Assembly: GCA_054600435.1 (NCBI GenBank)
Contig: BAAIJX010000007.1
Span: 62,001-126,000, forward strand
Source: Neophaeotheca triangularis
Lineage: Eukaryota
Direction: 5' to 3'
Length of the DNA stretch: 64,000 nt
The position numbers and the translations under genes were made by a program. The notes beneath the pieces are model-generated. The model saw only the letters and a list, made by a program, of their open reading frames with translations, was not told where the DNA came from and did no database searches. The stretch's first letter is position 1; the number at the start of each line of letters is the position of its first letter. Positions 7,489-53,885 of the stretch are shown here, in pieces.

Positions 7489-9789
7489 ATGAAACGCAAG
7501 ATCGGAGCCTTGGAGAAGGTGGATGCAGACCTGCCTAATCTGCAGCACAAGATTCGACGAGACCCTCCGTCCTATCGCGAAGACTTCATCAATCAGTACA
7601 GCCAATATGCATCGATCCACGAGCTGTTCCTGCAATCGCCCACCACCACCGATGATACTGGATTGATACGGCTACGCGATCTCATCGACTTCATCTCGCA
7701 TGTCGCGGAATGCTATCCCGAGATCACTTCGACCTTTCCTCAAGACTTGATCAGACTGCTTGAACTACACCACGCTACTCTTGACCCAGAACTACGAGAC
7801 AAGATAGTAGGGAGTCTGGTACTGTTACGCAAAAAGGGCACAATCGACAGCAACACCCTGCTATCCACATTATGGCCTCTTCTCGTCTCCACGCCCTCCA
7901 AAGCTCTCCGCGAGCTTCTCTTCCAAAAGATACTTTCCGACTTGCGCAACAGCAATAGCAAGACCACAAACCACAAGCTCAACCGCAATATTCAGACCAC
8001 ATGTTACAACCTCATAGCCTCCGACCCGGCTTCTCCGAAAGGTCTCTGGGCCATCAAGCTCACCCGTGAGCTGTGGAGACGACAAATATGGAACGATGCC
8101 AAAGCCGTTAGTATAATGGAGCTCGCGGCTCTGTCTCAAGACGCCAAAGTCGTCACGGGGGGTGTGCGCTTCTTTCTTGGTGGTGACCAAGAGCGTGAGG
8201 AGGCAGCTGCGGAAGAGGATACGGATGAAGAGGCTGTTGACATGGGCAAGCTGAAGCATCAGCAGGGTATCAACAAAAAGAGCGGAAAACGCCAGAAAGA
8301 GTTGAAAGCGGCGGCCGCAAAGCAGAAGCGTAAGAACAAGAAGAAGAATGCACCGCATCCGCTGAATTTCAGTGCTCTGCACTTGCTGCATGATCCTCAA
8401 GGTTTTGCTGAGAAGCTGTTCGGACAACATTTACAACCCGCGCAACCTAAAGTGCGTTTGAACCTCGAGCAGAAGTTGTTGGTGCTGCAGCTCCTCTCCC
8501 GCCTGATTGGTCTGCACAAGCTTACCTTGATACCGCTCTATTCCTACTTTCTGAAATTCCTCACACCCAAGCAGCCGAGCGTGACGGGCTTCCTCGCTAG
8601 CTTGGCGCAAAGTTCGCATTCTCTCGTACCGCCAGACGTCCTGGAGCCCCTGATCTTGAAGATTGCGAATGAATTCGTTTCCGAGGCCGCTGCGAGTGAA
8701 GTCGCGAGCGCTGGGTTGAATGCTATCAGAGAAGTGTGTGCTCGTCAGCCGCTCGCGATGAACGAAACGCTGTTGCAAGATTTGGTCCTGTACCGGAAGA
8801 GCAAGGACAAAGGAGTGCAAATGGCTGCGAGGGGGTTGATGTCTTTGTATAGGGAAGTTGGCGCGGATATGTTGAGCAAGAGGGATAGGGGGCGAGATGC
8901 GGCTTTGGGGTTGAGAACGGGCGAGAGGCAGGCTGCGAGGTTCGGTGCTGTGGAGGAGGGTGGTATTGAGGGATTGGATCTGCTGGAGAAGTGGAAGGAG
9001 GAGCAAGGAGCTGACAGTGAGGAAGACGAGGCCGAAGGCTGGAACAACTGGGATGCAGAGGAGGATGACTCGGATGACAGTGGTGGTTGGATCAACGTGG
9101 AGAGCGACGGCGAGGATATCGACATCTCGGACTCCGAAGACGAGCGAGAAAAGGCCAAGGACAAGGCAAAGAAAGCCAAACTCGACAGCGAAACGCCCAA
9201 ACCGAAAGAAGATGGTGAGCCTCCTGCAAACGAGGCCTCCGAAGCTGCCTCTCGCGCCACCGCGTCCCTCGAGCCCGAGGCCGCCCTCAAGCGCGAAGAA
9301 CAACGCATCTCCAAACTCGCCACCACACGCATCCTCACCCCTGCCGACCTGGCCAAGCTCAACGAACTCCGCAACTCGACCGCCATAACCTCCAACCTCG
9401 CCTCCAACAAACGCCGCAAAACCCCGACCTCGCAAAACGCGATCGCAGCCCGCCACTCTGACGACCCGCTCACAGCGGCCGAAATCGAAGGCCTCGCGTC
9501 CCTGTCCTCCAACAAAGCCACAAAGGAGGAACGTATCGCGGCCATCAAGAGTGGCAAGGAAGAGGACAAGAACGATCACCGCTCGACGACGGCCCGGCGC
9601 AAGGAGAAGAAGGAGGCTGAGGGTAAGAGCACGACGAACAAGGAGAAGGCGCGGAAGAAGAATTTCATGATGACGCTGGGTAAGGCAAAGAGGAAGGGGA
9701 AAAGGAGCTTAGTCGAGCATCAGAAGGTCTTAAAGGCGCATGTGAGCCGGGGGAAGAGAGGCGGTAAGAGAGGCAATGCTGGAAATTAG
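7489..9789 (+). CDS. SDA1: Sda1 60S ribosome biogenesis protein
   Basis: ATG at 7489 gives MKRKIGALEKVDADLPNLQHKIRRDP; NFSALHLLHDPQGFAEKLF, GLNAIRE, RILTPADL and STTNKEKARKKNFMM are characteristic Sda1 motifs. Confidence 0.95.
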   Translation: MKRKIGALEKVDADLPNLQHKIRRDPPSYREDFINQYSQYASIHELFLQSPTTTDDTGLIRLRDLIDFISHVAECYPEITSTFPQDLIRLLELHHATLDPELRDKIVGSLVLLRKKGTIDSNTLLSTLWPLLVSTPSKALRELLFQKILSDLRNSNSKTTNHKLNRNIQTTCYNLIASDPASPKGLWAIKLTRELWRRQIWNDAKAVSIMELAALSQDAKVVTGGVRFFLGGDQEREEAAAEEDTDEEAVDMGKLKHQQGINKKSGKRQKELKAAAAKQKRKNKKKNAPHPLNFSALHLLHDPQGFAEKLFGQHLQPAQPKVRLNLEQKLLVLQLLSRLIGLHKLTLIPLYSYFLKFLTPKQPSVTGFLASLAQSSHSLVPPDVLEPLILKIANEFVSEAAASEVASAGLNAIREVCARQPLAMNETLLQDLVLYRKSKDKGVQMAARGLMSLYREVGADMLSKRDRGRDAALGLRTGERQAARFGAVEEGGIEGLDLLEKWKEEQGADSEEDEAEGWNNWDAEEDDSDDSGGWINVESDGEDIDISDSEDEREKAKDKAKKAKLDSETPKPKEDGEPPANEASEAASRATASLEPEAALKREEQRISKLATTRILTPADLAKLNELRNSTAITSNLASNKRRKTPTSQNAIAARHSDDPLTAAEIEGLASLSSNKATKEERIAAIKSGKEEDKNDHRSTTARRKEKKEAEGKSTTNKEKARKKNFMMTLGKAKRKGKRSLVEHQKVLKAHVSRGKRGGKRGNAGN

Positions 9790-9814: not shown

Positions 9815-10151
9815 GTCGGTTTTGAGCGAAACCCGACGCAGTATAGGCATACACTGTGCTATATGCATACTCAACTATTGCAGGAACACATCGAGCAGAT
9901 AAAGAAGTAACTCAATTTGTAAGAAGAAGTCAGTTAGCGCCTTATTAACGAAAAATTGAATTGAATGTCATCATTTTATATGTCTAGGTAGAAAAGGAAT
10001 AGCAATAGTTCCGTACATGCCGTAATCTAACAAGATTTTGTTTAGGACATATTCAATGTTGAATTTTGACACCTATATGTGCGTGCGCGAAATTAAGCTT
10101 TGCGCCAAGCCCTACTTTGTAGGGGTAATTGACCAGATTACTGTAGGGGTG
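9815..10151 (+). repeat. Left copy (A) of the direct repeat flanking the island (SDA1-tRNA intergenic region plus first 5 nt of the tRNA)
   Basis: Aligns by eye with 53409-53776 from GTCGGTTTT to GATTACTGTAGGGGTG; 10090-10151 is identical to 53715-53776 (62 bp). Confidence 0.95.
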
Positions 10152-10176
10152 TTCGACAGAGTTGGTCAATTACCAC

Positions 10177-10580
10177 AGCAAATTGTTTTGCATTCAAAAC
10201 ATGTCTTCAAAAGCGCAAACAACCTTTAGGTTTTTTGCGCAAGCTTAGATGAGGGTTAAAATCAGAAATAGCTTATATACTATCTTTTTAAAAGCTTAGA
10301 TTACGCCTCGGTGAAAAACCTATCTACTATTCAACATTCGTTAGATTCTATATAGGAGTTGCTATTTCCTTATCTTCTAGCTATGTTCCGTATATTTCTG
10401 TAGTTATTAAGTATAGATATAGTATAGTGTATACCGATACTACGTCGGGTCTCGCTCAAAACCGATATTAGAACCTTACATTTTATCTACCCTAATTTCT
10501 AGCATTGCCTCTCTTCTACCTCTCTTCCCCCGGCTCTTTATATTATTATAGCAAATTGTTTTGCATTCAAAACATGTCTT
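10177..10580 (+). repeat. 31-bp direct repeat AGCAAATTGTTTTGCATTCAAAACATGTCTT at 10177-10207 and 10550-10580
   Basis: Exact match of both copies; contains hairpin TGTTTTG-CATT-CAAAACA; the second copy supplies the probable ATG (10574) of the helicase gene. Confidence 0.93.
10296..10536 (-). repeat. Inverted, RIP-mutated copy (C) of the SDA1 3' end and downstream region
   Basis: 10405-10536 is the reverse complement of ~9744-9877 (last ~15 SDA1 codons plus 3' flank) with C>T/G>A changes; shorter mirrored fragments (TTAGATTACG, TTGCTATT.CCTT) extend to ~10296. Confidence 0.9.
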
Positions 10581-13500
10581 AAAATGTAGAGACAGCCTAG
10601 GCAGACAGTATGCGACTAAAGGCGCTAAGGCACTCTATAGCCCTAGGGGTTTAAGCACTGTCGCTTAGTAATACCCTTCCCCCCGAGTTATTAGATCCTA
10701 GGCGTTAAAGTAGTGTCGGTAGGTAAGGATCATGTAGCTACTTAGGCGTCGTCGAGTGTTACGTAGCCTTGACATATACCTACTTATAGTAAGTTAGTTG
10801 CTCTAATATAGACACCTATAACAATATAGCTCTAATAAGATAGCTAGAATACGGCGTAAGGATAGGGGAGCTGACCTACCTAGCACTAGTACTAAGCGGA
10901 ATATCGACTAAGTAGACCCTTAAGCAAAAGAAGAAGCTAAGTTTTCAGCATACCTTACTAAATAGAAGAAAGCTAAGCGAGACGACGGCTTTACTAGGAG
11001 GGCTAATCTTACGGAGGAGACTACCGGCTAGAGTGACCAAGAGCGCTTCGAAGCCGCTATACTAACTCTAGAGGATAAGAAGGCGAAGCGCGTAGCTAAG
11101 TTAAAGGAGAAAGGCGAGCTCGTTCTATGCCTACCGGACTACGGGGTTTACGTCCTTAAGAAGGACAGCTCTAGCGAGGGTATACTAGGCATCGCGGGTT
11201 ACCTTAACTGTCCTACGACGGCCGTAGTATGGTAGCGCTTCGTCGACGATCCGGCGGTAGAGGCGATCTTAAAGGGCCTACACGAGGAAAGCTTAGTAAG
11301 TCTACATCCGGTCCTCTAGGCTTTAAGCTCGCACATGGCGTATAACATGGCGCCGGTGTTATTCTTTAGATATTAAATGTAGGTACCTAGTAAAAGATCT
11401 GCTAGTTAGCGGATCTTCGCTATTTTTAGCCACAAGAAAACTGCCGATTAGCGAATCCTTTAATAGTCGTTTTAAAAGGATCTACTAGTCGGCATGTCTT
11501 TACTAGCTCTTCGTACTTCGAAGACTATCCGATAAAATCCCTACGACCGCGTCACATGTAGAGCTAGCGTAGGAGGATGCAACTATATACTGACTAATGC
11601 TATCTGTCGTAGAAGGCGAACGCCTACGGTATAGTGATTAAAGAAAAGGCCGGTAGCTTCGTGGCGCTAACGTTCGTGAAGACAGACTTCTTCGCTAACC
11701 TAAAGTAAGGCCGGTTCTAGGCTTATGACGTCGCTAGTGATACGAGCCCGCTATTAGACAGATACCCTGCTAGCTCGACGTTACGAATACACCTCTACTA
11801 GCTAAGGGCCGCCGTTAAAATGATTAAAGCGGTGCCTATCTCGTTTATAGGCGCGGCGGCAATAAAGGGCAGAAAGTATGTTAAAGGCCTAGACATTAAA
11901 GCGGAGGACCTACACCGTTTCATCGTCTACTTTACGAAGTTCTACATCCGTAAGGTAGTGGAAAAGAGCTACGGTAAGAAGGCGCGGACGGTCGCATTCG
12001 CTAACCTACCTATCTTCTACCTCCTAGGCGAGTAATAGGCTAATACGGATAAGTAAGCCGCGTAAAATCATTACGCATTCGACAATTTGTTTAACTAGAC
12101 TATTCCCTCCGAGCACCTACTACGTTAGTTCGGCGACCGCTATAGCGAAACAGAGGGCGGCGACGGTAAAGGTAATGGCGGTAGCGGCGACGATACCGAC
12201 TTCGAGGAAAGCCCTAGGCTAGGCGGCGCCGCACTACGTTAGAGTTTGCCGCATCTCGAAGGGAAGGACTTGTCTCGATTACTCGGTTTCTTCGCCGACG
12301 GGGTTAATTATCTTTACGGCTCGAGGGAGAGGGGCAACCGTTTCTTTATACCCCCGTTAGAAAGTGTGCGTTTGTAAAGCGGTACGGTAACAGAAACGGA
12401 AAAGGCTCGCGAGGCTTCGAACGCACTTACCTATAGCGAGAGGCTCGCCTTTAACTAGGAGGAGTTTGCTAAACTATAACAGCGCGCTAACACGTGCTCT
12501 ACGGTAGCGCCCGACTAGGAAGACGCCGTGAATACGCTAGGCCTAAAGGTCTAGGAGCTCGATGAAGGAGAAATCGATTTGCTGACGCGACAAAACTTTC
12601 GAGTATCCTACCGCGGGCTATAACTTATACTATAGTAACCGTAGTCGTCCGCGTATATATACCGTATAATTAACGGCCCCCTTAGAGCGTGTATTAACAC
12701 CGACGACATAGGACTCGGTAAGACTATATCGACGCTCGTTACCGTAGTGTAGCGGTCTATAGACGTTCACTCTAGCCTCTAAGGATACTAGAACAAATAC
12801 TAGAGCCTAGTCGAGAGAGTACGGCGCGAGTAGGTAGTCGATTCGTCACAATCCGCAGATAGGGAAGATAAGAGCGACCCGAGCGACGAGAGGCTTATTA
12901 GTATAGTAGGACTAGAAGGCGCCGCTACTAACCTAGGCTATAAGCCGACACATAAGCTAGTACTTATCGTAGTGCCCCCGTCTACACTTAGCGCTTAGAC
13001 ACATTATGCCGCAAGGTACTTTTAAAATCGAGAACAGCGTATAAACATCACTATACGCACGTTCTTCGGCGTTAGCGGCGTAAAAGCTACCTCCCTCGAG
13101 CGGTAGTTGTCCGTCGGCACTACGGCGAGCGAGCTCTAGAGTTATTACGCTAGCCTCGACCCTAGCGACGATACTACAAGTCGAACGTGTATCCTAACGA
13201 CTTTTCGAAGCTTCTCGAGCCGCTGTCTAGATGCTTAAAGATCGGGGTTGTTAGACGGAGACGTTATAATGGAAGATTCGCCTAACGAAGTCGTAGAGGA
13301 AGTCCTTAACAGCGACGAGGAAGGACAAGAGTATGACGACTTGCTCGAGACGTAAGCCTACGAGCCCGACGAGGACGACGCCGACGCCCTTTAGAAGGTG
13401 CAATTCTCTACGCTTAGAATAGCTGCGGACACGTTTTCCTTACTAGTCGTTAACGAGGCTTATTAGGTCAAGAACCGCGTAAGCCTATAGACCGCCGCTT

Positions 13501-15868
13501 TATACAAGCTAGAATGTCGCGCCACGATACTCTATACCGCTACGCCGTACATTAACTCCGTGTATAATATGTACGGACTACTACGGTTTATGTAGAAGGG
13601 TATCGAAGGTCGCTTTAGCGGCTATTCCGCCGAGAGGCCTAACCGCGCCGCTTACGTCGAGCTCCTTAACAGCCTAACGAACAAGTACCGTCGTAGTATG
13701 TTTATAGTCCCGCCGGAGCACCTAGACACCTATCTTATAGCTCTCGATCCCGAGAATTTCAAGTCGCTACTAGGCGCCGGCGTTAGCGCGGTCGACATAG
13801 ACGTGAGCCACGACATAGTACGCTTACCCATAATGCTCACTTGTCTCCGCCGCGTAATAGGTAACAAGTTATAGGTAGCCGGCCGTAGCATTAGACTAGG
13901 CGCGGACATCCCGCCCTTCGAGGTTATCGTTATAGAGCTCCGCTAGGGCGACGCGGAATCGTCGTTATACGGGGCGGCGTACGAGGCGTGCTTTAGGGGA
14001 TCTAGTAGCGGGCTAAAGCGATCGTACGAGGAAGAGGGTCGACGTGCTATAGGCAGGCGCCGTAGGCTATAGCACGCCGCATTTAACCCGGCTTCCGATT
14101 AAATGTACATACGAAACATCGAAATAGGACCCGACACGATTTAGAAGATTACGAAGTAAGGACTCGACAGGTTCTTACTCTACTATAGCTAGACTAAAGG
14201 CAACCTCCACTATCATTTACTAGAGTCACGTATTACAATAGCGCTTTATGTTATAGGCGACTCTTATAAGATGCAAGCCGTGTACGCCGAACTTCTCTAA
14301 GTAGTTATTAGGGAAGACCGCAAAATGCTCCTATATGCGGAGTGGCCATTAAACCTCGAGCTACTAGAGTTGTTACTTTACATACTCGAAATCGAACACC
14401 TTTCTATCCGAGCGGGCGTTAAGGCTAGTAAAAGGATAGAGGCAGAAAACGAGTACAATAGTAACCCCGTAGTCAAGGTCCTCGTCTACTCTTCTAGATC
14501 GGCCGTAGAGTCGCTTAATTTGCAAAAGGGCGGCCACTACATTATAGTAGTAGATGTCATCCTAATTATAACGCTTATGCAGATTATTAGGAGGGGGTTC
14601 CGTGTCGGCTAGTCTTACCCGCAGACTATTAAGCTACTTACGGTTAACGAGACCTACGACTAATACCTCTTATATAGATACGTCGCCAACTATAGCGCCT
14701 AGCTAGCTGCTATATCCACTATCGAATTACCTAAGGCTGCCGTTAAAAGAGCTTGCCGTTAAGCCGACGAGCGCGATAGGCGCGGGCACTAAGGGGAACC
14801 GTCGGATTACGCCGAATACCTTAACAAAGCCTTACGGGAAGCGTTCGTAGGAGGCCTCGTATGTTGTATGCTAGGTATACGTTCGAACCGCGCCGACGAT
14901 TAGGGTGACGTGCGTAACGTGCGTAAGAAAAACTTGCTTCTAGAAGAGCGCCTCTTCCGCCTAGTAATAGGCGGGCCGGTAGCCACCGAGCTACTCCGTT
15001 AAATTTAGGAGAACAATTCTACTAAGTCCGTAGAGCTAGGCGACACGGTGCCTACGTTCTAGGCTAGCGTTTTCTCCGCCGCCATAGTTATACGTAGGGC
15101 TAATAGAGAGTCGTTTTTAGAAGGCAGCTACGTTCGCGCCTTAATTACTACGGCCCGGGACATAGCGGCGACCCGTGAATTCGCCCTAAACGCCGTTAGC
15201 GCGACCGACTACCTCGTTACTACTAAAGGCTAGGTAGAGACACCGTCGCCTTATCTGTACACGGTAATTAACCGCCTAGCGGGCGCGGAACAGTCCGGTT
15301 TAGCGTCTAGCTTAGATAGTCTAAATGTAGGCGGACAAGACGAACTATAATACGAAGCCTCGCGTACGGAGGATAGGCTACGGGTAGAGGCTATATGCTA
15401 GAGCGCGCTAGGTAGGAATTCCCCCTACTAACGCCGCTAGACCGCGCTAACTATATATAGACGGTAACGAAGCGTTAGTAGACAGCCTAACGAGGCAGGA
15501 GGATGTTCATAGTACGTTTCCGTTAACGTCGTGAAGGTGGATATGTGTTTTAATGCTGATAGAAAGTAGTTCCTTAAAGCGTAGACGAGTTGACCGACGA
15601 TTAAAGTCGAGCCTACTAGGAATGCCTTAGCGTGGTGAAAAACTTTTATTCGAGGTAGGGTATAGTAGCATTTACTAGGCAGGAATTTAAGGGAGAGGTC
15701 GACGCTAGCAAACGGCGCGACACGGTCGAAGTCGGCATGGCATTCTTATAGGTCGAGAAGGAGATCCGCGAAGGCAAGGCACATATTCTAGACTAGGCCA
15801 AGTATTCTAGGCAAGAGAAAGCATTGTGGGAGAAATGCTAGCGAGCAATTGAAAGTCCGAAAGAGTGA
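10574..15868 (+). pseudogene. SNF2/SWI2-family (SF2) helicase-ATPase, RIP-inactivated
   Basis: Motif I CINTDDIGLGKT (~12690-12725), Ia LIVVPPSTL (~12960-12990), II LVVNEAY*VKN (=DEAHQVKN after RIP reversion, ~13443-13475), III TATP (~13535), HELICc with ESLNLQ and motif VI QIIRRGFRVG* (=QIIGRGFRVGQ, ~14580-14612); probable introns ~11379-11611 and ~15512-15561. Confidence 0.9.
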
Positions 15869-18800
15869 CGAACGAGAGGGGGTCGGATCGAGGTAGAAGT
15901 AGAGGTTACACTACGGAGAAACAAACTGTTAGCATCTTCGGCGGTTTATTAGAACAGACGAATCGGCTCTAGGTATGGCTGTTTAAAAGGTAGTAGAAGT
16001 ATTAGGTAGCCTTACTCATTAATATAACCATGGTTTATGTCCGTCTGTTTTAGCGTTAATAGATCCTAGCGGCTTTTCATGATGCAGTAGATAGCACGAG
16101 GCTAATGGTCGAGTCTTAGAAAACTTCGAGGTGTTAGTCGGGGAGAGGCGGGAAGAGTACCTTGAGTTAACGCCTCCCCGACCCCCTTTACTAAGCGTAC
16201 TTAGTACTCGTGTAACCTGCCTTGGCTATTACAAGGTTTCACGCTACTACCTTACATATAGGCAATAAGGGCATATATGAATATAAAGTAGGCAAGAAGC
16301 GCTTTTCTAGTATCTACTATACTATATCCGCCCTAATCGACCCGAAAAAAGTATACTACGTGTTGAATCCTATTAAACAAAGAGCTATGTCTAGCGCTAC
16401 CCTTAATACATTACCTTATAGTAAGTCTTTCGCCCCGTTTTGCCTACCGAGTCTCTAGGACCTAGCCGAACCTCGCCCTCTAGCTCGCTACTATCTAAGC
16501 CCGGCGTTACCTTGCCTCTACAGTTCCGCGCCCGTTAGCTGTACGTGAAAAGACTAGAAGCTATTAGAAGGAAGGGCATGATTAATCGGAGGCCGTGTTA
16601 TCTACGAAGATTAGACAAGGAATGTCGCTATAGCCGGCCGATATACCGCGAGAGAGGTACTTAAGAACAAGAGGACCTCCGTTAGGGCTGCATACTAGGC
16701 GCATAATGACAGTGGGTGTCGTCGTCCGTAGCAAGATGTAAGGTGCCGACTTCGATATTCCTGTTACTATTTACCGGTTTCTTAGTTAACGACCCTAGGC
16801 CTTAAAGTCTGCTACCTTTATCGCTTCTACCTCTACTAGGGGCATCTTCGCCTATAAGATCGACAATCCCCGTCTCGAGAGAGAGACCGTAAGGCTTTAG
16901 GCGAAGGTCGAATTCCGCCCACGATAGTAGCCGAAGAGTCCGTGTCTATCCGTAGTGTTAGCCTAAGGGTCTTTACCTATCTAAGAATGCCGTTCTACAT
17001 GCCTCTTATAGCTAGTAGGGTTTACTTAGTGCTTTGTAGGGGCGTAGTAATCTAGCTCTTTACTCTATTCCTACATTGATTTAAATCGCTAAGTTAAGGA
17101 GTGTTAGCGGCAACGAGTTCAAGAATGTCGACGTAAGAGGCGTTAACTACGATCGACAGAAGTCTTACTATTAGCTCTTGTGTTAGACATCCGCTAGAGG
17201 TGTTTCTAGCGCGCTTCCGATACAAATGCATATTGCTATAACACTATCTCCGAATTGCAGAAATCTTTTAGAAGCACGTTCGGACCTAGGTCGACTAAAA
17301 GAGTTTATAGCCCTCTAGGTACTACCTTATAAAAGCTTACTAACTACTATGCCATTTAGAGCACTACGTTTAAGCTTCCCGTAAACACAAGAGTGCTAGT
17401 TGTGCTGTCTCCCTCCTATACAATCGGAGTAAGTTCATAGTATCTATCTAGATATAAGGCTTAAAAGCGGCCTAGTACTAATCGACAAGGCCGCATTGCT
17501 ATTAGCAATGCCCTTCGACGAAACGTGGGTTTAGAGCGCACTAATGCTCGACGAGCGAGGCGAATTGTTTAAGTACGGCATGAAGTTAAAAGTCGTCCTA
17601 CGGCTCGGGGATAACTAGGTAGCTAGTATTACTTTCGAGGTTTTAGAAGAGGTTAAAGTACCCTTACACGGTATATAGGAGTACGAAGCTCCGGAGAGTA
17701 ACGCGGCCACGGAACGAAGCGACGGTACTACTCGATCTAATAACGGTCTTAACGAGTGCTTCTAGGGTAAAAGGGGGGGCGGGGGGGGTCCGATTTTTAG
17801 GAAAGAGGCTCGTATGTTTGCAAGGGATATGATAGGTCGGCTTAGGCCTTAAGGAGGACGCCGTTATAAGGACCGAGGCTAGCAATAGCACACTGCCTAG
17901 GATTTAGATAGGGTTTAGGTGATGCTACCATTTCTATACTCGTTACGTTTGATTCTCCGCCGGCTAGGTACTATGTAATAAGTTCAAGCCCGGTTTACGT
18001 TAGGTAGCAAAACTTAAGAAGCTAAAACGCAGTAGTGTCTTGCTCTAACACGCGCGTTTATTAGATATACTAGAAATTGTCTAGATACTATCTCGTTACT
18101 ACCCGCTATCGCTAGTTTAGCTACTATAGTCATAGTCTTTAATAGTTATACGGTTCGGATCCACTAAACCACCTTAGCTTCTATCACACTAATACTAAGC
18201 GGGTATTAGTACGGCTCGCCTTTAATAAGAGTGCTATAAGCCTAAGCGTACGAGTAGCGCCCTAACGTCTACATGATTACGAAAATCAAAAGCCCCGGTT
18301 ACTCTCATTAGTTCCTCCTTGTCGCTACTAATCGAGCCCTTAGTACATCTTAATATCTACTATAACAGCTCCTATCGGTAGGAACTTGCCGAGGGTTCTA
18401 TCGAGCTATTTCCGCTATGTTAATGGTTAGCTAGCTAAACGGCGTACTGCTCCTTCGTACCCGGTTTTTCAAGCGCAGTAAATTATCCCCCGTAATGCCG
18501 ATCTTAGAAGCACGGCGCGATCGCTACGTATAGCCTCTAGAGCGCCTAATTGTACGACTAAGAACGTAGACGCTAGCGGCGTTAATACTAGTGTCTAGCG
18601 TAGCGTCGAGTATTCCTAACCTGTAGGGCACTAGGAGAGCTCGATACCGGAAGTCCTAGCTAAAGCCGATACGGAATAGGACGCGAAAGTGCTTACTTGC
18701 GCCTTCGAGGAGTCGTTCTTTGACTATATCGCTATCGAGAATGTAGAGGTATTACGGCGAGGAGTTAGTGACTACGATTGCTTATAAGGATAAATCTAGC

Positions 18801-19496
18801 CGAATAGTGAAGTGGTAACTACTAATGTCTAAGGCCTAAGGTATTACCATTTTAGCTACTCGAGAAGATCTAATCGATACCACTTACCGCCCGAGGAGAT
18901 AGCTCAAGTTAAGTTAAGTAATAGCCGTTCTAGAACGTTTATAGCATTCGAGATGCTTAGGGAGAGATTAGGGCATGAACCGAGCCTACCTATTCGTTCT
19001 TGCTTTAAGAGCTACGTGGAACTCTTGCGACTACGGTAGGATATAAAGGAAGGGCATTATTACTAAGAAGATATAGAAGAAGGCTTTGCGGTTTATCGTA
19101 GCGAGCTATGTTAGCGCATATATAAGTATTAAAGAACAAGATACGTGGGCGGACTACGGCTATACTGTAAATAGGTTGACTCGCCGCTATAGCTAAGTTC
19201 CCTAACCGTAAACTATGATTTAGCTAACTATTCGAGACAAAGTAAGACCGCGGACATGCGAGCGCTACGACTACTAGTCTACTCAGGCTTTTACTTGTCT
19301 AATGCTTACTGTAGACTTCGAGTAGCTCTAAGCTATTCGGGTTAAAGGTAGTGTCGTAGTTTTGCACGGCGCTTCGTTTACACCTAAAGCCACCGAACTA
19401 TAGCCAAAAGAGGTCAAGACAATCCGCTTCGTGGACTAAGCAAGTTAAGACCTTGTCGAGGTTTCGGTTTTACACAACAAATACATGTCCCTTTCT

Positions 19497-20560
19497 TTAT
19501 GCGCCCGGTATCATGTCCGAGTCTTCCGTCTCCCTAAGTAAGGTTTCATCGTCTTGAAATTCGGCCCTCTTCCTTTTCGTTTTCCGCGCAACTCGCTTCT
19601 CTCTAAATCTGCTAGAGGCCCCGGCAAGACGTGATTGCCCTAAGGATGTTCTAGGTTCCGTCGCTTCTATAGAAGGTCGAGGGAAAATGCTATTCAGATC
19701 ATCCCCGTGACATCCCGCTAGTAGGCCTATTAATACCCGGCGAATGATGTCGTAGTAGAGATCCTCTAGGGTTTCTATAGTAAGGGACTTAAGCCGACGA
19801 GCAGCCGAACTAGCGGGATTCTCTTTGTCGTCGACGTGCGGGCCGTCTAGTAGAGGCACTAGATTTCGAAATTTTCCTCGACTCGAGCCCCCTAAAAGCT
19901 AGTATAACTCGGATGTTGTAGTTAGAACGAAGAGCTTTTTGGTAGCGTATAAGACTATCGAATCGGAGTTCGTTCGGAAGACGGGGACATTGCCGTAGGG
20001 GGCGAATTGTATACCGAAAAGCGGTGTACTAGCCGAAGGAGGGTTCATTATAGCGCTACTTTTAAGATATCTACTACGCTAAATGTCTTGCTAAAACGCC
20101 GTTCTCGAAGCGTGCGACCACTTGTACTTAGCGAAGTAGATAGGTGTATACTCTAGCCTTTATCGATGTTAGTAAGACCGCCTCGTAGAGCTTCATATTA
20201 TAGGAACTTACCCCGGAGGACAAGGGCGCCGGGCTTCTAGTACCCTAGAATTAACACCCTACTTACGCTAGGTAAAGCGCGAAGGTTAGTGGAAGAAGAA
20301 GCCGTCCCTATAGTGTGTAGCTAGCTTATTTAGAGCTATGACAAGCAATTCATTCTACGGTAGCGTACGCCTAATGTAGCCGACATCGATGTTATCTACC
20401 CGAAGTTATAGGTGTTTAGTCCTTATATCTCTCTAAAAGAACTTTAGGCTTGCTACGATGTTACGTAGTAAGTAAGTGGACTAATTAACGTCTACAGTGT
20501 CCGTTCTAGGGCTAGAGGTTAACCCCGACATATCGTCGATATAGCAATACTCCTATGATT
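19497..20560 (-). pseudogene. Hypothetical protein, decayed; C-terminal ~120 codons still open
   Basis: ORF 19497-19859 with basic NLS-like KRVARKTKRKR; frame continues upstream through RIP-type stops. No family recognised. Confidence 0.4.
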
Positions 20561-22285
20561 AGAGCGAGGTAGGAGGAAGACCTTATAGTGTTTAAAAGCA
20601 CGACACGTTCAAGACACTATCTGTGAAAGTACCGACACCGTGTCACAATGTGTTTCGAATGGCGGCGCGACTCCTCTATAGCACGAAACAAGACAAGGAC
20701 TAACTAGTTTACTCACTCGCATAATACATAAAAGCATCGTCCTTAGACTGTCGAGTCCGACTCGAGGCAAAGACCCTCTCCCCTTTGCCGCTTTACTAAT
20801 AGACGACTTAAACGTAGTTATTAGTTTTATGTCTATGTTATAGCACTAACAACTAACATTCGGAGCCGTGTACGACTAGCGCTCGAAATGGCAAAGCGCA
20901 TGCGAAAGGTTTTAGTTAGCATTAGGCGGCCCTCCGGCAATCTATTAACATTATGTCCTCTTATTCTCTTAGCTCCTAGGGCAACTAGACCTCTTCGACC
21001 TTATAAGGCTCGTTATACTAGAACTTCGAAGCGCCGGAACTCCCTAGTCGACCTCTTAACTATAGAGCTAAGTACTTAACACCGTCTCCGACATCCGTCA
21101 TTAGGCTCTACGAATCGAGTTAAGAACGCAAGCCGACTTCGATTTACCGCTTTATCTTAGCGAGAAACGTGTATAGCTAGAGGCGGAGATTCACCGCGCT
21201 AGAGTTCTACTCTATTAAGGCGGGAGCTACACTTTACAAGAGTAGAGGGAGATAAGCGAATGGCTAGTAAAGCGTCCGCTAGGCATCGCCTAGCCGATAG
21301 TTAGCGAAGAAACCTCGAGTCCTACTAGAAGGCCTTCGAACGAGGGGAGCGGCAATTAAGGAACTCCCCCGGAGTAAGAGGCTACATCCTCGCGCCTCTT
21401 ATTCTTACGACTGCCCTTAAACGCGATATAATAGTTAGGGCGGATAGCTAGGTAGTAGGAGAACGATTGTCTGTAGAACATCTAAGGGAAGTTAATTTAA
21501 GTAGTGTACCTGAAGGGGACTTGTGTATAAGAACACGTAGAACTAGTTTGCGAGATAGGTCGATTCGTGGAGGCTTATAGGCTAAACCGGGTAGGAGGGT
21601 AGTATCGGCTAAATTAGTTAGGTAGCGGAAGGGTAACCGTCGAGGTGCTTTTACAGCAAGTTCTTAGTAGGCAATATACGTGGTTAGTTAAAGGAATTTA
21701 TGCACGTGCCTTCCTACTAGGTCATGTGCAGATCACGTGATTCTTCTACTCTTGCCTTATGGCTTTATAAATGCCTTAGGCATGAAATTCCCGCCGGACG
21801 GATTCATCTTCTAACGTACAGCTCGGTAGATAGCTCTATCCTATTTAACACTAGATCTACGCCTATAGAACTATAGCCTAGGAATTTCCGCATTACCGGC
21901 TGTAAGAATCCAAGTAAAAAGACCTTACGGTAGGAAAACGCTACATGATATACTTCCCGTGTCTATCTAGTAGGACGAGTATAACAGGACTCTAGTATCT
22001 ACTATGTCTTTAGTCCTAAGTCACGAATCACTTATAAACTTCCCTTGTCCTATTCCGCAAATATCTAGCTTATAAGTTAAGGCCGTTAGGTAGGAGACAA
22101 GTACAAAGGGTTTATTAGTCTTCGTACGATTAGCGCAGTTCTTTCCGTAAAGTTACATTAACAAAATCGAGACCTCCGCCCCTTCTAACCTCCCTAGGCC
22201 CTCGCCCTCGTACTAAGTGAACTGTAGTCGAGATTATACACCCCTCCTAAATCATACTCCGCCCGCCCTTAGACCTACGCTTGCC

Positions 22286-22639
22286 TTAGTCTCCGTCATC
22301 GCTACTGTCGACAACTTTAGTAACCGGTTCGTCCGGAGCATCTTTTTCGTAGTCGAAAATCTCCTTAATGTCGCCTAAGGAATCCTGAAAAGCCGCTAGG
22401 AAGCCCGCTACTCGCTTAATATTAGAGGTATCTAGATATTGCATATCGGCTTTTCGCTTAAGAACCAAATTGCTTAGAACTGTCTTAAGTTTACCGATCG
22501 TTTCGTAGGCTTCTTCGGTTTTAGCGGCGAGTTCTTTAAGTGCTACTAGCATGTCCCGGCAAAGCTTTCTATTAGCCGCTCGATAGGACGCTAGAGGTAG
22601 CTAGAGCGTAGGCGGCCTAGTAGAGGTAGTTTCTTGCAT
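22286..22639 (-). pseudogene. Small helical hypothetical protein
   Basis: ATG at 22639, one TAG, then the open 88-aa ORF MLVALKELAAKTEEAYE... with an acidic tail. Confidence 0.45.
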
Positions 22640-23139
22640 TGTTTGCGTGCGGTAAGGCGTCGTTAGTCGTAGCGGTATATGTAAGGGTGTGTGCTATAGG
22701 GCCTTTATGTGTAGGTAGGTGTACGAGGGTGTAGTAGGGCGTGTAAGTATGTTTAAGTGTGTATGTTGTTAATCCTAGACCCGTGATGAAGTTAAAGAAG
22801 AATGCGATCGTAGCAAAAGGTCGTTTAGATACACATTATTATATAAGGAATCGTTAGGGAAAATCAGGTGCGCTACTAGCGCCTCTATCTAGGTTCTATT
22901 TACGACCTATAAGACATGTAGCTTAGTTATAGAATACAACCGGCCTTTAAAGCAAGATAGGGAAATCAAGCGAAACAGTGTAGTACGGTTACTTGCTACG
23001 CTAAAGTTAGATCTTGTCTAAAACAAGATAGATAGAGCTTTATAGGAAAGGAGAGAAGAAGCTATAACCGTACGAGGTTTCATTCAATTAACGTGCGCTA
23101 ACTTAATGCGTGTTGTTACAATTTGTAAGACCGAATTAA

Positions 23140-24252
23140 AGTAAATGTAAGTCCTCCTGTCAGGCAAACCTCGTCTCTATTAGCGCCTACTAGTCTATTC
23201 CTCTAACTCTTTTAGTTATTCCCGTACTCCTAATCCTCGCCTAGTGTCTACGTCGCTAGGTAAGTCTACATCTTACGGCGACACAGTATTATCTCCTTCT
23301 ATGACTATCGTACTACCCGTCCGGAGCCGCTACGAAGCCTCGGCGATCGTACTATAGACGCCTATAAAGCTAAGGTAGAACGAGGAGCGATCGTAGACCG
23401 GCTTAGCCTAGGGGATAGACCTGTCTAAGGCTAGGAAGGAGACCGGATCGTAGCGCTCGAGAGGTAGTAGATACGGCTCCTAGGCGTTATCGCGGTAAAC
23501 GTTATCGGTTACCCTAAAGCACCCCTCGTTATAGTAAATATCATTGTAGTTACGCGGTACTTGTTAAAGGTAAGGGTAATTAAGCAAGAACTAGTTAAAG
23601 GAAAGCTAGTCCTTAGTCGAGACGATAGTACCGTCGGAGCGTTATACGGCGTAATCGAATCGGATCTATAGGCGCGTGATTCTCCTATCTACTTAAGCCT
23701 AGATTTTCGAGCTTTCGTATTACGTAGAGGGATGCTTACTTAAAGTGTATTAAGAGGCTCTAGCGGTAAAGGCTTACACGAGTAATAGGCCGTCTTCCCT
23801 TCTACTAGCGGCTCCGATTTTGCACACTAGCTAAGTAGTAAAGGCCTCGTCTACATGTCGGTCGGCAAATTCGGGTAGATAGCGGAAGCCGAAGGTAGTG
23901 GCTAGGAAAGGCGGACGCTAGTGTTCGGCGACGAGCAATGCACCTTTACGATCGAGACCGTTCTTTACGCGAATATGTTAGCCCGTAGGATAAGATCTAG
24001 GACATTAATAATACTTGCCTCGAAAACCGTCCTCTCGTACTATAGCTGCCCTATTGACCTAGAACGTTTAACCGACCAGATTATATCCTTCTTCACAAAA
24101 CCTCCGTCGATATATAGCTTTAACAGCAAGTCCGCCAAAATGGTTCTACCGGCGACGATAACTTAGCGCTAAGCTAGCTCCTCGACTATTCCTAGAGGCG
24201 GTAGATACCTAACCGCGATGCCTATCATCTCGTAGTCGTTAAGTGCGTTCAT
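23140..24252 (-). pseudogene. Hypothetical protein, RIP-inactivated
   Basis: MNALNDYEMIGIAVRYLPP... long protein-like frame broken only by TAG/TAA, with one probable intron or frame change. Confidence 0.4.
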
Positions 24253-26559
24253 GCTTGTAGTACGGCCTATAAAGAGAGGAGGCGGGGATCTTACAGTTAA
24301 ACAAAAGCATGGAAATAAAGAACTAGGGGCTAGAAGACGGGATGCGGTAGCCTCGCAGTTAAATAGAAGAACGGAAACGAACGGCTAGGGGCCGGAGGCG
24401 TGTGAATGTTAACTAGTAAGGTTACTAGAGTGCTAGCGTAAGCATGTCTTACTCGGGTATATTAGGGTGGACTAAAGACTTAAGAAAAGAAATGAACGGA
24501 TAGATTTCTTGGTCTATTAGGCGGTGTTTAGCACGTGAAAGTAGAGAGCTGTTATCGGTTAGTAGGAATATAGTAAATGCGACTCGATTGCTCACTATCA
24601 TGTTATGCGACAACATGTCCTCTAGCCGGAGTCTCTCTCTATATTGTAGCGACGCTAACTCTATCCGTTCTCCTTAATACGTTCATCCTACTAGCCTTCG
24701 AGCAAGCTAGCGTCTACGCCGTAACGCGGACATAGGACACCCTAGAATTGCCTAGGCCCTAGTAGCTCATGCCTAGCGAAAGGGTAGGTGTATAGGTATT
24801 TAAGCTAATAGTGTCTGTGTAAGGTTACCGAGCATTCCGAGCATTACTAGGGGTTCTCGCCGATGTCGTAGAAATGTAAGCAAACTATATATTAAAGATA
24901 CAGTTCCGCATTGTCGCGCGCATGTATGTAGTCGTTTCTCTTAGTATTAGCGTGCTAGCTTTATACCACTCGGTTAGGTTACTATAACTCATGTCGGTAG
25001 CGTAATAGAGGGGGTGAAATCGACCTCGCTAGCGTTAGGACATCGCCTCCTACACGTGTTTCCCGAGGTATATTATATAGATTGTGATAGAGCGGTAGGG
25101 TATTATAGGGGCTACGAAGGTGCTCGAGGGTACGCGCTACGGCGTTATAGTCGGCGCCGTTTTCGAATAGGCCTATTCGGCGGGGTAGAGTCCTCTATCG
25201 AGATAACGTTAGATTTGCGCTAGATATATAATAGCAAAGCGAGGGAGCTTACCGATAAGATTCGCTAGTAATCTATAACATCGGTAAGGAGGCGCTAAGC
25301 GAAATCTTGTGTTGCTGTCCTAGCGTAGTCTTTATAGACAAGTAAGTTTGCGATGATCTCGACTATAGTAAGGGTATCGCGTATCGCGAGCAGATGTGAC
25401 CTTAGCGAGTTAAGACGGTTTAGGACCTAGAGGTAGGGATCTGCGGTGAGGTAGAAGCGATAACTTTAGTAAACGTACGTCCGAATCGCGAGACGGTTTA
25501 GCCAAGTGATCGCATAGCTAATATCGTCCTCTATACCTAGGTAAGGGTAGGAAGTCAAATCCTTCTAAGGCAGACATCGTGCTATAAATCGTGCGCTATA
25601 TGTCTTAGACACTTACTTTTTTAGGGGCTCTCGGTTAGTCTTTTATTAGACATTTGAACACCACTAGGGAGCAGGAAAAGGCGGTCTACATGTAATAACT
25701 AAGCGTTACGGTACACGCAACGGTTTAGTTCTAGCTTTCGGGGCGCTAGGGATCTCCTAACCGGGAACGTAAGAGACATCGTGTTCCCGTATATACGTCC
25801 GTAGTATGAAGAGGTAGAGGTGTTTAGGTAGGAAGGATGAAACGAAGTGTGAAGGACGTGATTTTCTATAAGCTAGTATCTACTAGAAAGCTTACTAAGT
25901 GTATAGAAGTGCACGTGCCTTCTAAGCTAGGTCATGTGATATTCACGTGTCTGTCCTACTCTTATTACACACGTACTATAACGTTAGGTAATGTCTTAAT
26001 AGAGTTGATTACCTAACCTAGTGGAAGTCGCGCGCTAGTACCTAGGTAGCTAGACCGAACCGTAATTTTCTAACCGTCTGTACTAGGAGGCCACTATTAT
26101 TAGGACCCCGGATTCGCTATTAACATGTTCAGATAACTTGAGCACCTAGGAAATGTAATGCCTACGTACAATGAGTAGAAGGTATGTAGAGCTCCGATAG
26201 TAGGTATTACCTACCGAATAATCGATACACTAACTTAGGGCACGATAGGTTTACCGTTTAGAGCGCTGTCTACTAAATACTAAAGGGTTCGGGTAAACGC
26301 AGCGATCCGCGTCGCTAAGAATGTGACGATAGCTTATCTCCTAATAGGGTCGGGCGCCGTATCTAAGCCTTCTACGAGCGGAACGGGCTAATGAAACGTG
26401 TAAGTTATTAATCTTAGCAGTATTGTATTCACCGGGTCCCGACGACACCTTATAGCGAAGGGCCTATTACCAAATTCTTGTGAGACTTTATCTAATAGCA
26501 TACAAACACCCGTCTTAACACTAACTAATCCTCGTATAGGAAACAAAACACTTTAAGCG

Positions 26560-27648: not shown

Positions 27649-28124
27649 TTTCTCTATTGTGCTTACTAGGTTAATCGAAAGGATAGGGCCGGCCTTTCTT
27701 ATATCTCCCTCGTAACTCGAGTGCTAACCTCGTCTATCGACGTTTCGTCGAATCTATATGTGCGTAGAATAGAGCGCACGTAAGTGTCTAAAACGAGTCT
27801 CTGTTTTAACGGTAGAAGCTAGCGCGTAGACAATGTGAGCGTTGTCACGCTCCCCTTACACTTAGTACATTTCTAGCGCAGCACTACTATACGCATTGTC
27901 CCGAGTCCTTATGAGACTCGATACCTCGATTAGGTCTTACGTGTAGTAACACTAAACAAATCATGTCTCTACTTTGTCGAAGTTAGACTATGACTGTGCT
28001 TGTTCGTGACCGCATTACTACCTAAGCTATCGTAACTTGCTTTACCTCTAACTTCTAATTTCGAAGACTTTGAAATTTTACCCTAGTTTAAAAGACTTAA
28101 TCTCATATCTAACGAAGTCAAACT

Positions 28125-32485: not shown

Positions 32486-32539
32486 TAACTATATAGGATG
32501 CTATAATAGCCCTCGCGTGTCATAAGGTGTTGTTTCGTA

Positions 32540-45560: not shown

Positions 45561-45759
45561 ATATAATAGGTTAAAGGGCGGGCGGGCGCTAGGGCGGACG
45601 GGGCGGGTACTACTATAAAAGGCCGTAAGAGTAGTGTAAATGGCATCCGATAACGAAGAGCATCTATCGCCGTTATACATAATCCCTCCCTACTACTATA
45701 AGAGAACTTCTAAACCCCTACTACGACTAACCTCGATAAAGGAAGTTTACGACGACAGC

Positions 45760-53875: not shown

Positions 53876-53885
53876 CCATAATCTC

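What the first reader, a model, noticed from the sequence alone, without database searches (positions are those of the whole stretch)
10296..10536. Left end holds an inverted copy of the SDA1 3' end that matches copy B, not the adjacent host copy
Seen: copy C shares GCGAGACCCGAC and GTATCGG with B, whereas A has GCGAAACCCGAC and GTATAGG. C also extends into the last ~15 SDA1 codons. So both ends of the island are built from the same non-resident allele of the target locus and form imperfect terminal inverted repeats with each other. Inference: the element previously sat at this same locus in another lineage (or in an ancestral allele) and captured flank by imprecise excision or fold-back, suggesting recurrent homing and possibly introgression or horizontal transfer.
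Basis: partly seen in the sequence, partly recalled or inferred. Interest (0 to 1): 0.75.

Follow-up and report, generated by a model that had tools for sequence, protein, structure and literature searches.

The report
Inverted spacer copy at island edge
A 44-kb mutated insertion beside a fungal tRNA gene is bracketed by three copies of the short stretch between the SDA1 gene and that tRNA, one of them flipped, which look like a scar of how the DNA got in and not like working transposon ends.

Summary
10374-10534 (-) is an inverted copy of window 9746-9907, the last 41 nt of the SDA1 CDS, its stop codon and 3' flank. It carries the copy-B letters at 9830, 9839 and 9845.

The signal is thin. 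In the 93-nt three-way overlap, B=C in 6 sites and A=C in 4. Four of the six are CpA>TpA RIP sites, no more shared than chance predicts. Two non-RIP sites remain (9830 A>G, 9845 A>C). Contigs of two other runs (X2, X5) carry copy A's letters there, so the B/C states are derived and A's are not private.

New here:
- The inverted copy seems to span 10152-10536, a head-to-head palindrome with A. Its centre is the island junction, 5 nt inside an intron-bearing tRNA-Arg gene.
- A and B are 337-bp direct repeats whose last 62 nt are identical.
- The arms are least alike at their termini.
- No recombinase or transposase was detected. The only recognisable gene is a RIP-killed orphan SNF2-like ATPase.
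- A's own haplotype diverges sharply from X2/X5 from about 9711 onward.

Best reading (0.4): an integration scar, followed by RIP spill-over and allelic exchange. Rival (0.25): a self-homing element carrying its own target copy.

The parts
7489..9789 (+). SDA1 gene (single ORF, stop TAG 9787-9789). Its last 41 coding nt are duplicated in copy C.
   Evidence: ORF list. Pfam SDA1_HEAT 3e-151, SDA1_dom 1e-38, SDA1_C 1.5e-19. Nearest atlas clusters are Ascomycota SDA1.
9815..10151 (+). Copy A: the SDA1-tRNA spacer next to SDA1, direct-repeat partner of B. It ends with GGGTG, the first 5 nt of the tRNA.
   Evidence: the repeat finder D1, D2, D6. Alignments: 38 substitutions plus a 4-nt and a 35-nt indel against B.
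10090..10151 (+). 62-nt block identical in A and B (partner 53715-53776): candidate crossover or gene-conversion tract.
   Evidence: last difference at 10089. Simulation: P = 0.00016 for a difference-free terminal 62 nt, 0.0065 for any such run. It forms a separate 62-nt unitig in X1 at depth 323, against about 128 for single-copy sequence.
10152..10373 (-). Inner, tRNA-proximal part of the inverted spacer copy. It is strongly diverged, has no RIP-like composition in 10150-10299, and is interrupted by the E core.
   Evidence: Transition-tolerant local alignment of rc(10152-10380): to B, score 79 against a shuffle maximum of 73 (200 shuffles); to A, score 63, equal to the shuffle maximum. The 12-mer GGTAATTGACCA occurs at 10124 (+), 10163 (-) and 53749 (+), with 0.08 matches expected. 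X2 contig 8 links 10327-10369 (rc) to 10095-10137 and the tRNA. Composition.
10374..10534 (-). Copy C proper: inverted copy of A 9746-9907 (SDA1 last 41 nt, stop, 3' flank), with many RIP-type changes.
   Evidence: (I1, I2).
10169..10225 (+). E1: first copy of a 57-nt direct repeat, with a 30-nt core identical to E2.
   Evidence: the repeat finder D5 (82%). The core occurs exactly twice in the window and 0 times in each of 100 shuffles. Alignment score 85 against a shuffle maximum of 49, 0 of 300 shuffles reaching it.
10542..10598 (+). E2: second copy of the 57-nt repeat. Together E1, 10226-10541 and E2 make about 1.15 tandem units of 373 nt.
10599..53408 (.). RIP-degraded island body. Only 1 ORF of 120 aa or more overlaps window 10000-54000.
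   Evidence: TpA/ApT 1.5-2.3 and (CpA+TpG)/(ApC+GpT) 0.34-0.67 in every 2-kb bin from 10001 to 54000, against 0.6-1.0 and 1.04-1.35 in the flanks. ORF count.
10924..15317 (+). Remnant of a large SNF2-like ATPase gene: two blocks (10924-11289 and 11613-15317) separated by an intron-like gap. It is the first gene inside the left end and reads inward.
   Evidence: Pfam SNF2-rel_dom 1.2e-09. Homologue P0001 (1520 aa): 39% identity, 98% coverage, E 7.7e-195. tblastn map. Only 2 relatives were found in two database searches.
53409..53776 (+). Copy B: direct copy of the spacer at the right end, continuous with the tRNA. Its canonical RIP-type changes relative to A are confined to the 82 nt next to the island (A 9824-9896).
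   Evidence: There is no detectable extension left of 53409 (score 21; 195 of 300 shuffles did as well or better).
53772..53878 (+). tRNA-Arg gene with a 32-nt intron. The A/B homology ends after its 5th nucleotide.
   Evidence: Rfam RF00005, 43.9 bits against a gathering score of 29, covering 53772-53875. aragorn run with introns allowed. The default ARAGORN tool found nothing.

Best explanation
Copy C is the better-preserved outer half of an inverted copy, about 385 bp long, of the whole SDA1-tRNA spacer (10152-10536). That copy abuts the SDA1-side spacer (A) head to head. The meeting point is exactly where a 43.6-kb foreign, now RIP-destroyed island begins, 5 nt into a tRNA-Arg gene. At the other end a direct spacer copy (B) rebuilds the tRNA's native upstream region, so the tRNA gene stays whole.

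I read the three copies as the scar of one complex insertion at the 5' edge of the tRNA gene. The proposed mechanism is break repair with fold-back and template switching. The short tandem E1/E2 duplication would be a by-product.

Later events:
1. While the island existed in two or more copies, RIP spilled over from it into the adjoining 100-250 bp of C and B.
2. The two direct copies, which can pair with ordinary alleles or with each other, were partly overwritten by crossing-over or gene conversion. The 62-nt identical block is the most recent tract.
3. The embedded inverted copy and the outermost 90 nt of B kept the original allele.

On this reading 'C matches B, not A' means retention versus replacement. 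It does not mean repeated homing. The copies are not working terminal inverted repeats.

Shown: the anatomy, the RIP pattern, the polarity of the two non-RIP sites, the identity block, and the haplotype break near 9711.

Inferred: the single event, its repair mechanism, and the later allelic exchange.
For: - Palindrome centred on the junction. Arms 9746-9907 / 10374-10534 are listed by the repeat finder over 9766-9907 / 10374-10515 as 142 nt at 81%. The hairpin fold has z -15.7. The inner arm aligns to B above all 200 shuffles. A 12-nt exact inverted repeat brackets 10151/10152.
- A and B are direct repeats ending 5 nt into the tRNA.
- RIP signature is present in every island bin and absent in the flanks. 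B's 7 canonical RIP-type changes all lie in the 82 nt next to the island. RIP-type sharing between B and C is at chance level (4 observed, 4.7 expected).
- B and C share 2 non-RIP derived states. X2 and X5 carry A's letters at both.
- C shares A-type letters against X2/X5 at 9753, 9771, 9783 and 9812. All three copies therefore come from one haplotype family.
- The 62-nt A/B identity block is non-random (P = 0.00016 terminal, 0.0065 anywhere), as expected for recent exchange.
- Divergence from X2 jumps from 3 of 137 codons to 7 of 25 codons at about 9711 (p = 8e-5). This shows recombination history at this flank.
- The arm termini are the least similar parts, and no further TIR exists beyond the spacer copies (19 of 300 shuffles reach the observed score).
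- No recombinase or transposase domain appeared in the frames scanned.
Against: - A fold-back copied from A should give uniform arm similarity. Instead the centre-proximal 220 nt are the most diverged, yet 10150-10299 shows no RIP-like composition.
- The inner arm resembles an X2 contig (38 of 43 nt) more than it resembles A or B. Either the template was another allele, or both A and B were later overwritten. That is several extra events.
- A and B differ by at least 12 transversions and 2 indels, a lot for copies made in one event. The allele type shared by A and B in 9876-10094 was not seen in X2 or X5 at 85% likeness or better (only two other runs cover the spacer).
- The B/C signal rests on only two sites.
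- Heavy RIP could hide a recombinase. Not all six frames of the whole island were scanned.
- The phasing of A to E1 versus B to tRNA across the 62-nt identical block cannot be confirmed from k=31 contigs.
Confidence: 0.4

Rival explanations
1. Campbell-type self-homing element. The island is, or was, a circularising element that carries its own copy of the SDA1-tRNA spacer (B, with C as a passenger). It integrates by a single crossover with the chromosomal spacer, either by homologous recombination or through a now-lost recombinase. The crossover lies within the 62-nt identity block at the tRNA 5' edge. This regenerates an intact tRNA and leaves direct repeats A (recipient allele) and B (allele of a former host).
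For: - Direct repeats bound the island, and one of them runs into the tRNA.
- A sharply bounded 62-nt identity block sits next to the junction inside otherwise diverged repeats of about 86% identity. This is the pattern expected around an integration crossover.
- B and outer C share derived non-RIP states absent from A, X2 and X5.
- B and C carry RIP-type damage next to the island, so they were linked to it when it was duplicated.
- The cargo gene is an orphan with 2 relatives found, which fits mobile DNA.
Against: - No integrase or recombinase was detected.
- B-inner and C-inner should be the same captured allele, but they barely align.
- The inverted copy has no role in this model and still needs a separate fold-back-type origin.
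- C shares several A-type states against X2/X5, so the 'former host' was not distant.
- No second insertion and no circle has been observed.
Confidence: 0.25
2. No special B-C kinship at origin. C and B were both copied from the resident allele. The two shared non-RIP states arose later by gene conversion between the inverted copies B and C, or a short conversion tract reset A's 9815-9860 to the common allele.
For: - Only 2 informative sites exist. A=C in 4 sites and B=C in 6 of 28 variable sites, and overall identities are nearly equal (76% versus 74%).
- Conversion clearly acts at this locus, as the 62-nt identity block shows.
- C shares A-type states in the SDA1 3' end.
Against: - A differs from X2/X5 at 9812, 9863 and 9866, on both sides of the supposed reset tract. 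The tract would have to be about 50 nt long.
- B-to-C conversion over 43 kb that covers just these sites is ad hoc.
- It does not explain C's distinct inner part.
Confidence: 0.12
3. Working long-TIR transposon or Starship-like element whose terminal inverted repeats were captured from the target locus.
For: - Mutually inverted spacer copies lie at both ends (I2: 92 nt, 77%).
- The size is 43.6 kb and the insertion lies beside a Pol III gene. Starships favour 5S rDNA (23% of curated sites; PMC11162782, passages).
- RIP implies the element was once multi-copy.
Against: - The termini (10152-10373 against the tRNA-proximal part of B) are the least similar part of the arms. The conserved 92-160 nt are internal.
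- No DUF3435 or other recombinase or transposase domain was found in the frames scanned. The first inward gene at the left end is SNF2-like.
- The direct repeat is 337 bp, not 2-16 bp.
- No TIR extends beyond the spacer copies.
Confidence: 0.08
4. Assembly artefact: a chimeric fold-back read, or mis-phasing across the identical 62-nt block.
For: - Palindromes are a known long-read artefact (recalled, not tested here).
- k=31 contigs cannot phase across the 62-nt repeat.
Against: - The arms differ by about 20%, with RIP-type and other changes. Artefactual fold-backs are identical.
- Unitigs of X1 span the A/E1 junction (10122-10206, depth 148) and all of C (10178-10579, depth 123.5) at single-copy depth. 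X1 may be the source data, so this is not independent support.
Confidence: 0.02

Closest known systems
Starship giant elements of Pezizomycotina (e.g. Voyager in 5S rDNA)
   Same: A tens-of-kb accessory insertion in an ascomycete, RIP-affected, sitting at a Pol III-transcribed gene. The element ends are related to the target sequence.
   Different: - Starships are defined by a DUF3435 tyrosine-recombinase gene at the 5' end and have 2-16 bp direct repeats (PMC11162782 and PMC9156397, passages read).
- Here no such gene was detected and the first inward gene is SNF2-like.
- The direct repeat is 337 bp.
- The target is the 5' edge of a tRNA gene, which is left intact. Starship 5S rDNA insertions are internal and likely disruptive (PMC11162782).
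Bacterial genomic islands and integrative conjugative elements integrated at tRNA genes (Campbell-type integration)
   Same: The island is bounded by direct repeats, one of which overlaps the tRNA gene. The gene is restored by the element-side copy. An identity block sits at the junction.
   Different: - The host is a eukaryote.
- The repeat covers the 5' end (5 nt) plus 332 nt of upstream spacer, not the tRNA 3' end.
- The homology extends far beyond the identity block.
- No integrase was found.
- An extra inverted copy is present.
- The comparison with the bacterial systems rests on general knowledge and on one passage in PMC9156397.
RIP (repeat-induced point mutation) with leakage into adjacent sequence
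   Same: CpA>TpA and TpG>TpA changes dominate the differences in C and outer B and fade with distance from the island. The island's dinucleotide indices are typical of RIP.
   Different: - RIP explains the decay, not the origin, of the copies.
- It cannot explain the transversions, the indels or the un-RIPped but diverged inner arm.
- The leakage distances known from Neurospora are recalled, not taken from a call.
Fold-back inverted duplications from break repair or replicative template switching (recalled class, not from a call)
   Same: A head-to-head inverted copy adjoins the original with essentially no spacer. There are extra duplicated segments and a short tandem piece (E1/E2) at the breakpoints.
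   Different: Arm similarity is not uniform, and the inner arm looks like a different natural allele. Such events are usually described in yeast and human genomes, not as the entry route of a 43-kb island.

Membership tests
Starship | DUF3435 tyrosine recombinase ('captain') as first gene at the 5' end, reading inward | tested here: inconclusive
   Pfam was run on stop-as-X translations. Covered: + frames 10540-28201; - frames 38300-53400; and 18 further low-stop segments. The only hit was SNF2-rel_dom. The first inward gene at the left end is SNF2-like. Heavy RIP and incomplete frame coverage (- frames 10150-38300 and + frames 28200-53400 scanned only in part) prevent a firm negative.
Starship | Short direct repeats (2-16 bp) matching the target core | tested here: not met
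   The direct repeat A/B is 337 bp with a 62-bp identity block. The 2-16 bp range comes from passages of PMC11162782.
Starship | Large cargo-carrying insertion absent from an empty site in other strains | tested here: inconclusive
   The size of 43.6 kb fits. X2 contigs run from the spacer end into the tRNA, but this could equally be a B-like copy. No contig joins SDA1 to the tRNA.
RIP-affected repeat | High TpA/ApT, low (CpA+TpG)/(ApC+GpT), and C>T / G>A changes at CpA/TpG between copies | tested here: met
   Indices are 1.5-2.3 and 0.34-0.67 across 10001-54000, against 0.6-1.0 and 1.04-1.35 in the flanks. Of 15 canonical sites in the overlap, 10 are mutated in C and 7 in B. The customary numerical thresholds are recalled.
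Campbell-type integrated island at a tRNA gene | Direct repeats bounding the island, one overlapping the tRNA gene, with an identity block at the crossover | tested here: met
   A 9815-10151 and B 53409-53776 end 5 nt into tRNA-Arg. Their last 62 nt are identical.
Campbell-type integrated island at a tRNA gene | Integrase or recombinase gene, and an excised circular form | tested here: inconclusive
   No recombinase domain was found in the frames scanned.
TIR DNA transposon | Terminal inverted repeats best conserved at the very termini, a short target-site duplication, and a transposase | tested here: not met
   The termini (10152-10373 against B's tRNA-proximal part) align only marginally. 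The conserved arms are internal. There is no short TSD and no transposase domain.
Fold-back inverted duplication | Inverted copy abutting its template with little or no spacer | tested here: met
   The centre of symmetry is at 10151/10152. A 12-nt exact inverted repeat lies at 10124-10135 / 10163-10174. Hairpin fold z -15.7.
Fold-back inverted duplication | Arms derived from the adjoining template, so similarity is uniform apart from later decay | tested here: not met
   The outer arms are 81% alike. The inner arms align barely above shuffles, yet 10150-10299 lacks a RIP signature. An inner 43-mer matches an X2 contig better than it matches A.

The most novel reading that the evidence does not exclude
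A fungal giant element with no Starship-type captain carries a copy of its own chromosomal target, the SDA1-tRNA-Arg spacer. It re-enters that locus by a single crossover in a 62-bp identity block at the 5' edge of the tRNA gene and rebuilds the gene as it integrates. This would be a eukaryotic analogue of tRNA-targeting integrative islands. The allele it carries (B/C) would record a previous host.
Probability: 0.2. Interest if true: 0.8.

Novelty: new variant of a known kind. Interest (0 to 1): 0.4.

Why it matters
Large accessory insertions in filamentous fungi are now mostly explained as Starships with short direct repeats and a tyrosine recombinase. This locus shows a different border anatomy:
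- a 337-bp direct duplication of the target spacer;
- an inverted copy forming a palindrome exactly at the junction;
- an intact tRNA gene;
- a non-random identity block at the junction.

If this is only a repair scar, it documents how a 43-kb DNA can enter at a tRNA-gene edge. It also shows how RIP leakage and allelic exchange can mimic a 'foreign allele' signal, which is a caution for inferring horizontal transfer from a few shared variants. If the element carries its own target copy and homes by homology, that would be a new integration strategy for eukaryotic cargo elements.

Tried and rejected
- Whole genome: none is held for this window, so other copies of the island could not be sought. 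Earlier scan notes: none.
- The default ARAGORN tool found no tRNA. Rfam, and aragorn run with introns allowed, did.
I repeated it in smaller pieces; only SNF2 was found. Not scanned: - frames of 10150-38300 and + frames of 28200-53400, except for 18 selected segments.
- B extending into the SDA1 CDS as C does: not found (score 21; 195 of 300 shuffles as good or better).
- A TIR beyond the spacer copies (10537-10900 against rc 53000-53408): not significant (19 of 300 shuffles as good or better).
- Metagenome contig scans for the spacer/tRNA junction (36-mer) and for the E core (28-mer): 0 matches each.
- Read laying: no contig of X2, X5 or X6 was laid on 10370-12300, and none of X2 or X5 on 9876-10094. 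An un-RIPped or differently RIPped copy would fall below 85% likeness in any case.
- Literature: a search for Starship + tyrosine recombinase + tRNA + target site gave 5 papers, 4 listed. Passages of PMC11162782 and PMC9156397 mention tRNA only as a method or for bacterial elements. Starship + SNF2 + captain gave 1 irrelevant review, seen in the listing only. A RIP / tRNA gene / insertion site / giant transposon search found 21 papers and listed 12; none was evidently about tRNA-edge insertion, judged from the listing only. Supplements were not read.
- Explaining the elevated divergence in 9711-9786 by RIP leakage alone: rejected. Only 2 of the 7 sites are canonical RIP-type in the window, and 3 (9753, 9762, 9765) cannot be RIP in the window at all.

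Full report
**Setting.** The window is from an ascomycete. 7489-9789 (+) encodes a complete SDA1 protein, with SDA1_HEAT, SDA1_dom and SDA1_C domains. The nearest atlas clusters are Ascomycota SDA1. From about 10.2 kb to 53.4 kb lies a lower-GC block with a strong RIP signature. In every 2-kb bin, TpA/ApT is 1.5-2.3 and (CpA+TpG)/(ApC+GpT) is 0.34-0.67. The flanks give 0.6-1.0 and 1.04-1.35. Only one ORF of 120 aa or more overlaps window 10000-54000.

**The three copies.**
- Copy A (9815-10151) and copy B (53409-53776) are direct repeats (D1, D2, D6). They differ by 38 substitutions, a 4-nt indel and a 35-nt indel.
- Their homology ends after GGGTG, the first five nucleotides of the tRNA. In A the next base begins the island. 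In B the tRNA simply continues.
- Copy C is inverted. A 9746-9907 pairs with 10534-10374. This is the longest inverted repeat in the window (142 nt, 81%), and the region folds as a giant hairpin (z -15.7).
- C includes the last 41 coding nt of SDA1 and its stop codon.

**How strong is 'C matches B'?** The 93-nt three-way overlap has 28 variable sites: B=C in 6, A=C in 4, A=B in 17, and one where all three differ. Four of the B=C sites are CpA>TpA. Of 15 canonical RIP targets, 7 are mutated in B and 10 in C, so 4.7 shared hits are expected and 4 are seen (P = 0.90). These four sites carry no information about ancestry. Two sites remain, 9830 (A>G) and 9845 (A>C), and RIP does not make either change.

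**Polarity from other runs.** One search found runs that hold the SDA1 3' end. I laid four on 9300-12300 at 85% likeness: X1 (probable source), X2 (same organism label), X5 (another label) and X6.
- X2's contig and X5's contig both cover 9830-9845.
- The 9845 row shows no other letter in either run.
- All 14 tallied X2 changes, and all of X5's A>G (7) and C>T (4) changes, are accounted for by other rows. Both runs therefore read A at 9830 and C at 9839, and C at 9872.
- The B/C states are thus derived and A's are not private. At 9866, however, B, C, X2 and X5 all read T, and at 9863 B agrees with X2 and X5.

**A is not a plain 'resident' allele.**
- Against X2, the window has 3 synonymous differences in the 137 codons of 9300-9710 but 7 in the last 25 codons (Fisher p = 8e-5). 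All are third-position changes. Only two are canonical RIP-type in the window, and three cannot be RIP in the window at all.
- Past 9875, X2 and X5 both run on unlike A, with the same 30 letters.
- C shares A's letters against X2/X5 at 9753, 9771, 9783 and 9812.
- So A, B and C belong to one haplotype family that is itself diverged from the X2/X5 type.

**The inverted copy is longer than reported.**
- With transition-tolerant scoring, rc(10152-10380) aligns to B's inner part above all 200 shuffles (79 against a maximum of 73). It aligns to A's inner part at the shuffle maximum (63).
- The 12-mer GGTAATTGACCA lies at 10124 (+), 10163 (-) and 53749 (+), with 0.08 matches expected.
- A 259-nt X2 contig holds a 43-nt match (5 mismatches) to rc(10327-10369). 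78 nt further on, in the same orientation, it holds a match to 10095-10137 and then runs into the tRNA.
- I therefore read the whole of 10152-10536 as an inverted spacer copy whose centre of symmetry is the island junction.
- Its inner 220 nt are very diverged, yet 10150-10299 shows no RIP-like composition. The inner arm is interrupted by a core that recurs just beyond C. E1 (10169-10225) and E2 (10542-10598) share a 30-nt core that is identical and found nowhere else in the window. This gives about 1.15 tandem units of 373 nt.

**The identity block.** The last 62 nt of A and B are identical, while the other 275 aligned positions carry 40 differences. A difference-free terminal 62 nt has P = 0.00016, and any such run P = 0.0065. 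X2's two variants differ from this block at 5 of 43 and 5 of 50 positions, so strong constraint does not explain the identity. Recent crossover or gene conversion does.

**What the island is.**
- I read stops as X and scanned with Pfam the + frames of 10540-28201, the - frames of 38300-53400, and 18 further low-stop segments. The only hit was an SNF2-related domain.
- The remnant (10924-11289 and 11613-15317, +) matches a 1520-aa hypothetical protein (P0001) at 39% identity over 98% of the query.
- Two database searches found only two relatives. P0001 has an SNF2/helicase core with long unassigned N- and C-terminal regions.
- This gene starts about 260-320 bp inside E2 and reads inward.
- No tyrosine recombinase, transposase or reverse transcriptase was detected. 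RIP damage and incomplete frame coverage limit that negative.

**Interpretation.**
- The arms are best conserved internally and worst at their termini, and no inverted repeat extends beyond the spacer copies. They do not look like functional TIRs.
- In the passages I read, Starships have a DUF3435 captain and 2-16 bp direct repeats, and often sit inside 5S rDNA (PMC11162782; PMC9156397). This locus fails the direct-repeat criterion. The captain test is inconclusive.
- I favour (0.4) a single complex insertion at the 5' edge of the tRNA gene that triplicated the spacer. RIP leakage from the island followed: B's seven canonical RIP-type changes all lie in the 82 nt next to it. Allelic exchange then overwrote much of A and B but spared the embedded inverted copy and B's outermost 90 nt.
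- The main rival (0.25) is a Campbell-type element that carries its own target copy and crosses over in the 62-nt block.
- Both readings struggle with the distinct inner part of C.
- Neither requires horizontal transfer. The divergence jump near 9711 does show that the island sits on a diverged haplotype.

**Limits.**
- Only two informative sites support the B-C kinship.
- Only two other runs cover the spacer, and only as k=31 contigs. The full X2 and X5 spacer sequences, the right flank and the phasing across the 62-nt block could not be examined.
- X1 is probably the source data and is not independent.

Noticed in passing
window 9300-9875: Divergence from the X2 and X5 contigs jumps inside the SDA1 3' end. 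There are 3 synonymous differences in 137 codons (9300-9710) against 7 in the last 25 codons (p = 8e-5). X2 also has a 12-nt insertion behind 9797. This suggests a recombination breakpoint between 9555 and 9711, bounding an island-linked haplotype.
   Followed up: partly
window 53772-53878: The tRNA-Arg gene has four G.U pairs in its acceptor stem and only a moderate Rfam score (43.9 bits). aragorn places the 32-nt intron at an unusual position (34/35). X2 has the same first 25-30 nt, so this form is not specific to the island carrier.
   Followed up: partly
runs X2 (contigs 8 and 9) on window 10095-10151: X2 holds two variants of the tRNA-upstream spacer, at depths 67 and 61. Together they equal the depth (127) of its SDA1 contig. 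This looks like two alleles or nuclei in one sample, or a duplicated spacer.
   Followed up: no
window 54259-54524: A compact GC-rich fold-back lies about 400 bp downstream of the tRNA and is not RIPped. Its arms are 54288-54348 / 54434-54494 (61 nt, 90%) and 54259-54283 / 54500-54524 (25 nt, 96%). It looks like a MITE.
   Followed up: no
window 11392-11502 and 36859-36936: A repeat of about 110 nt (80-97% identity; D9, D14, D16) occurs in the intron-like gap of the SNF2-like gene and again 25.4 kb further in. It may be a small mobile element inside the island.
   Followed up: no
window 10924-15317; proteins P0001, P0003: The SNF2-like ATPase belongs to a very sparse family: only 2 relatives were found in a word-indexed search of 5.8 billion proteins. 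P0001 has about 480 N-terminal and 400 C-terminal residues with no Pfam match.
   Followed up: partly
window 10090-10151: In X1 the 62-nt unitig shared by A and B has depth 323, against about 128 for single-copy sequence (2.5x, not 2x). This may be noise on a short unitig or a hint of a further partial copy elsewhere in the genome.
   Followed up: no
window 30954-31072: Two adjacent 54-nt direct repeats (83% identity, 65-nt spacing; D7) lie inside the island.
   Followed up: no
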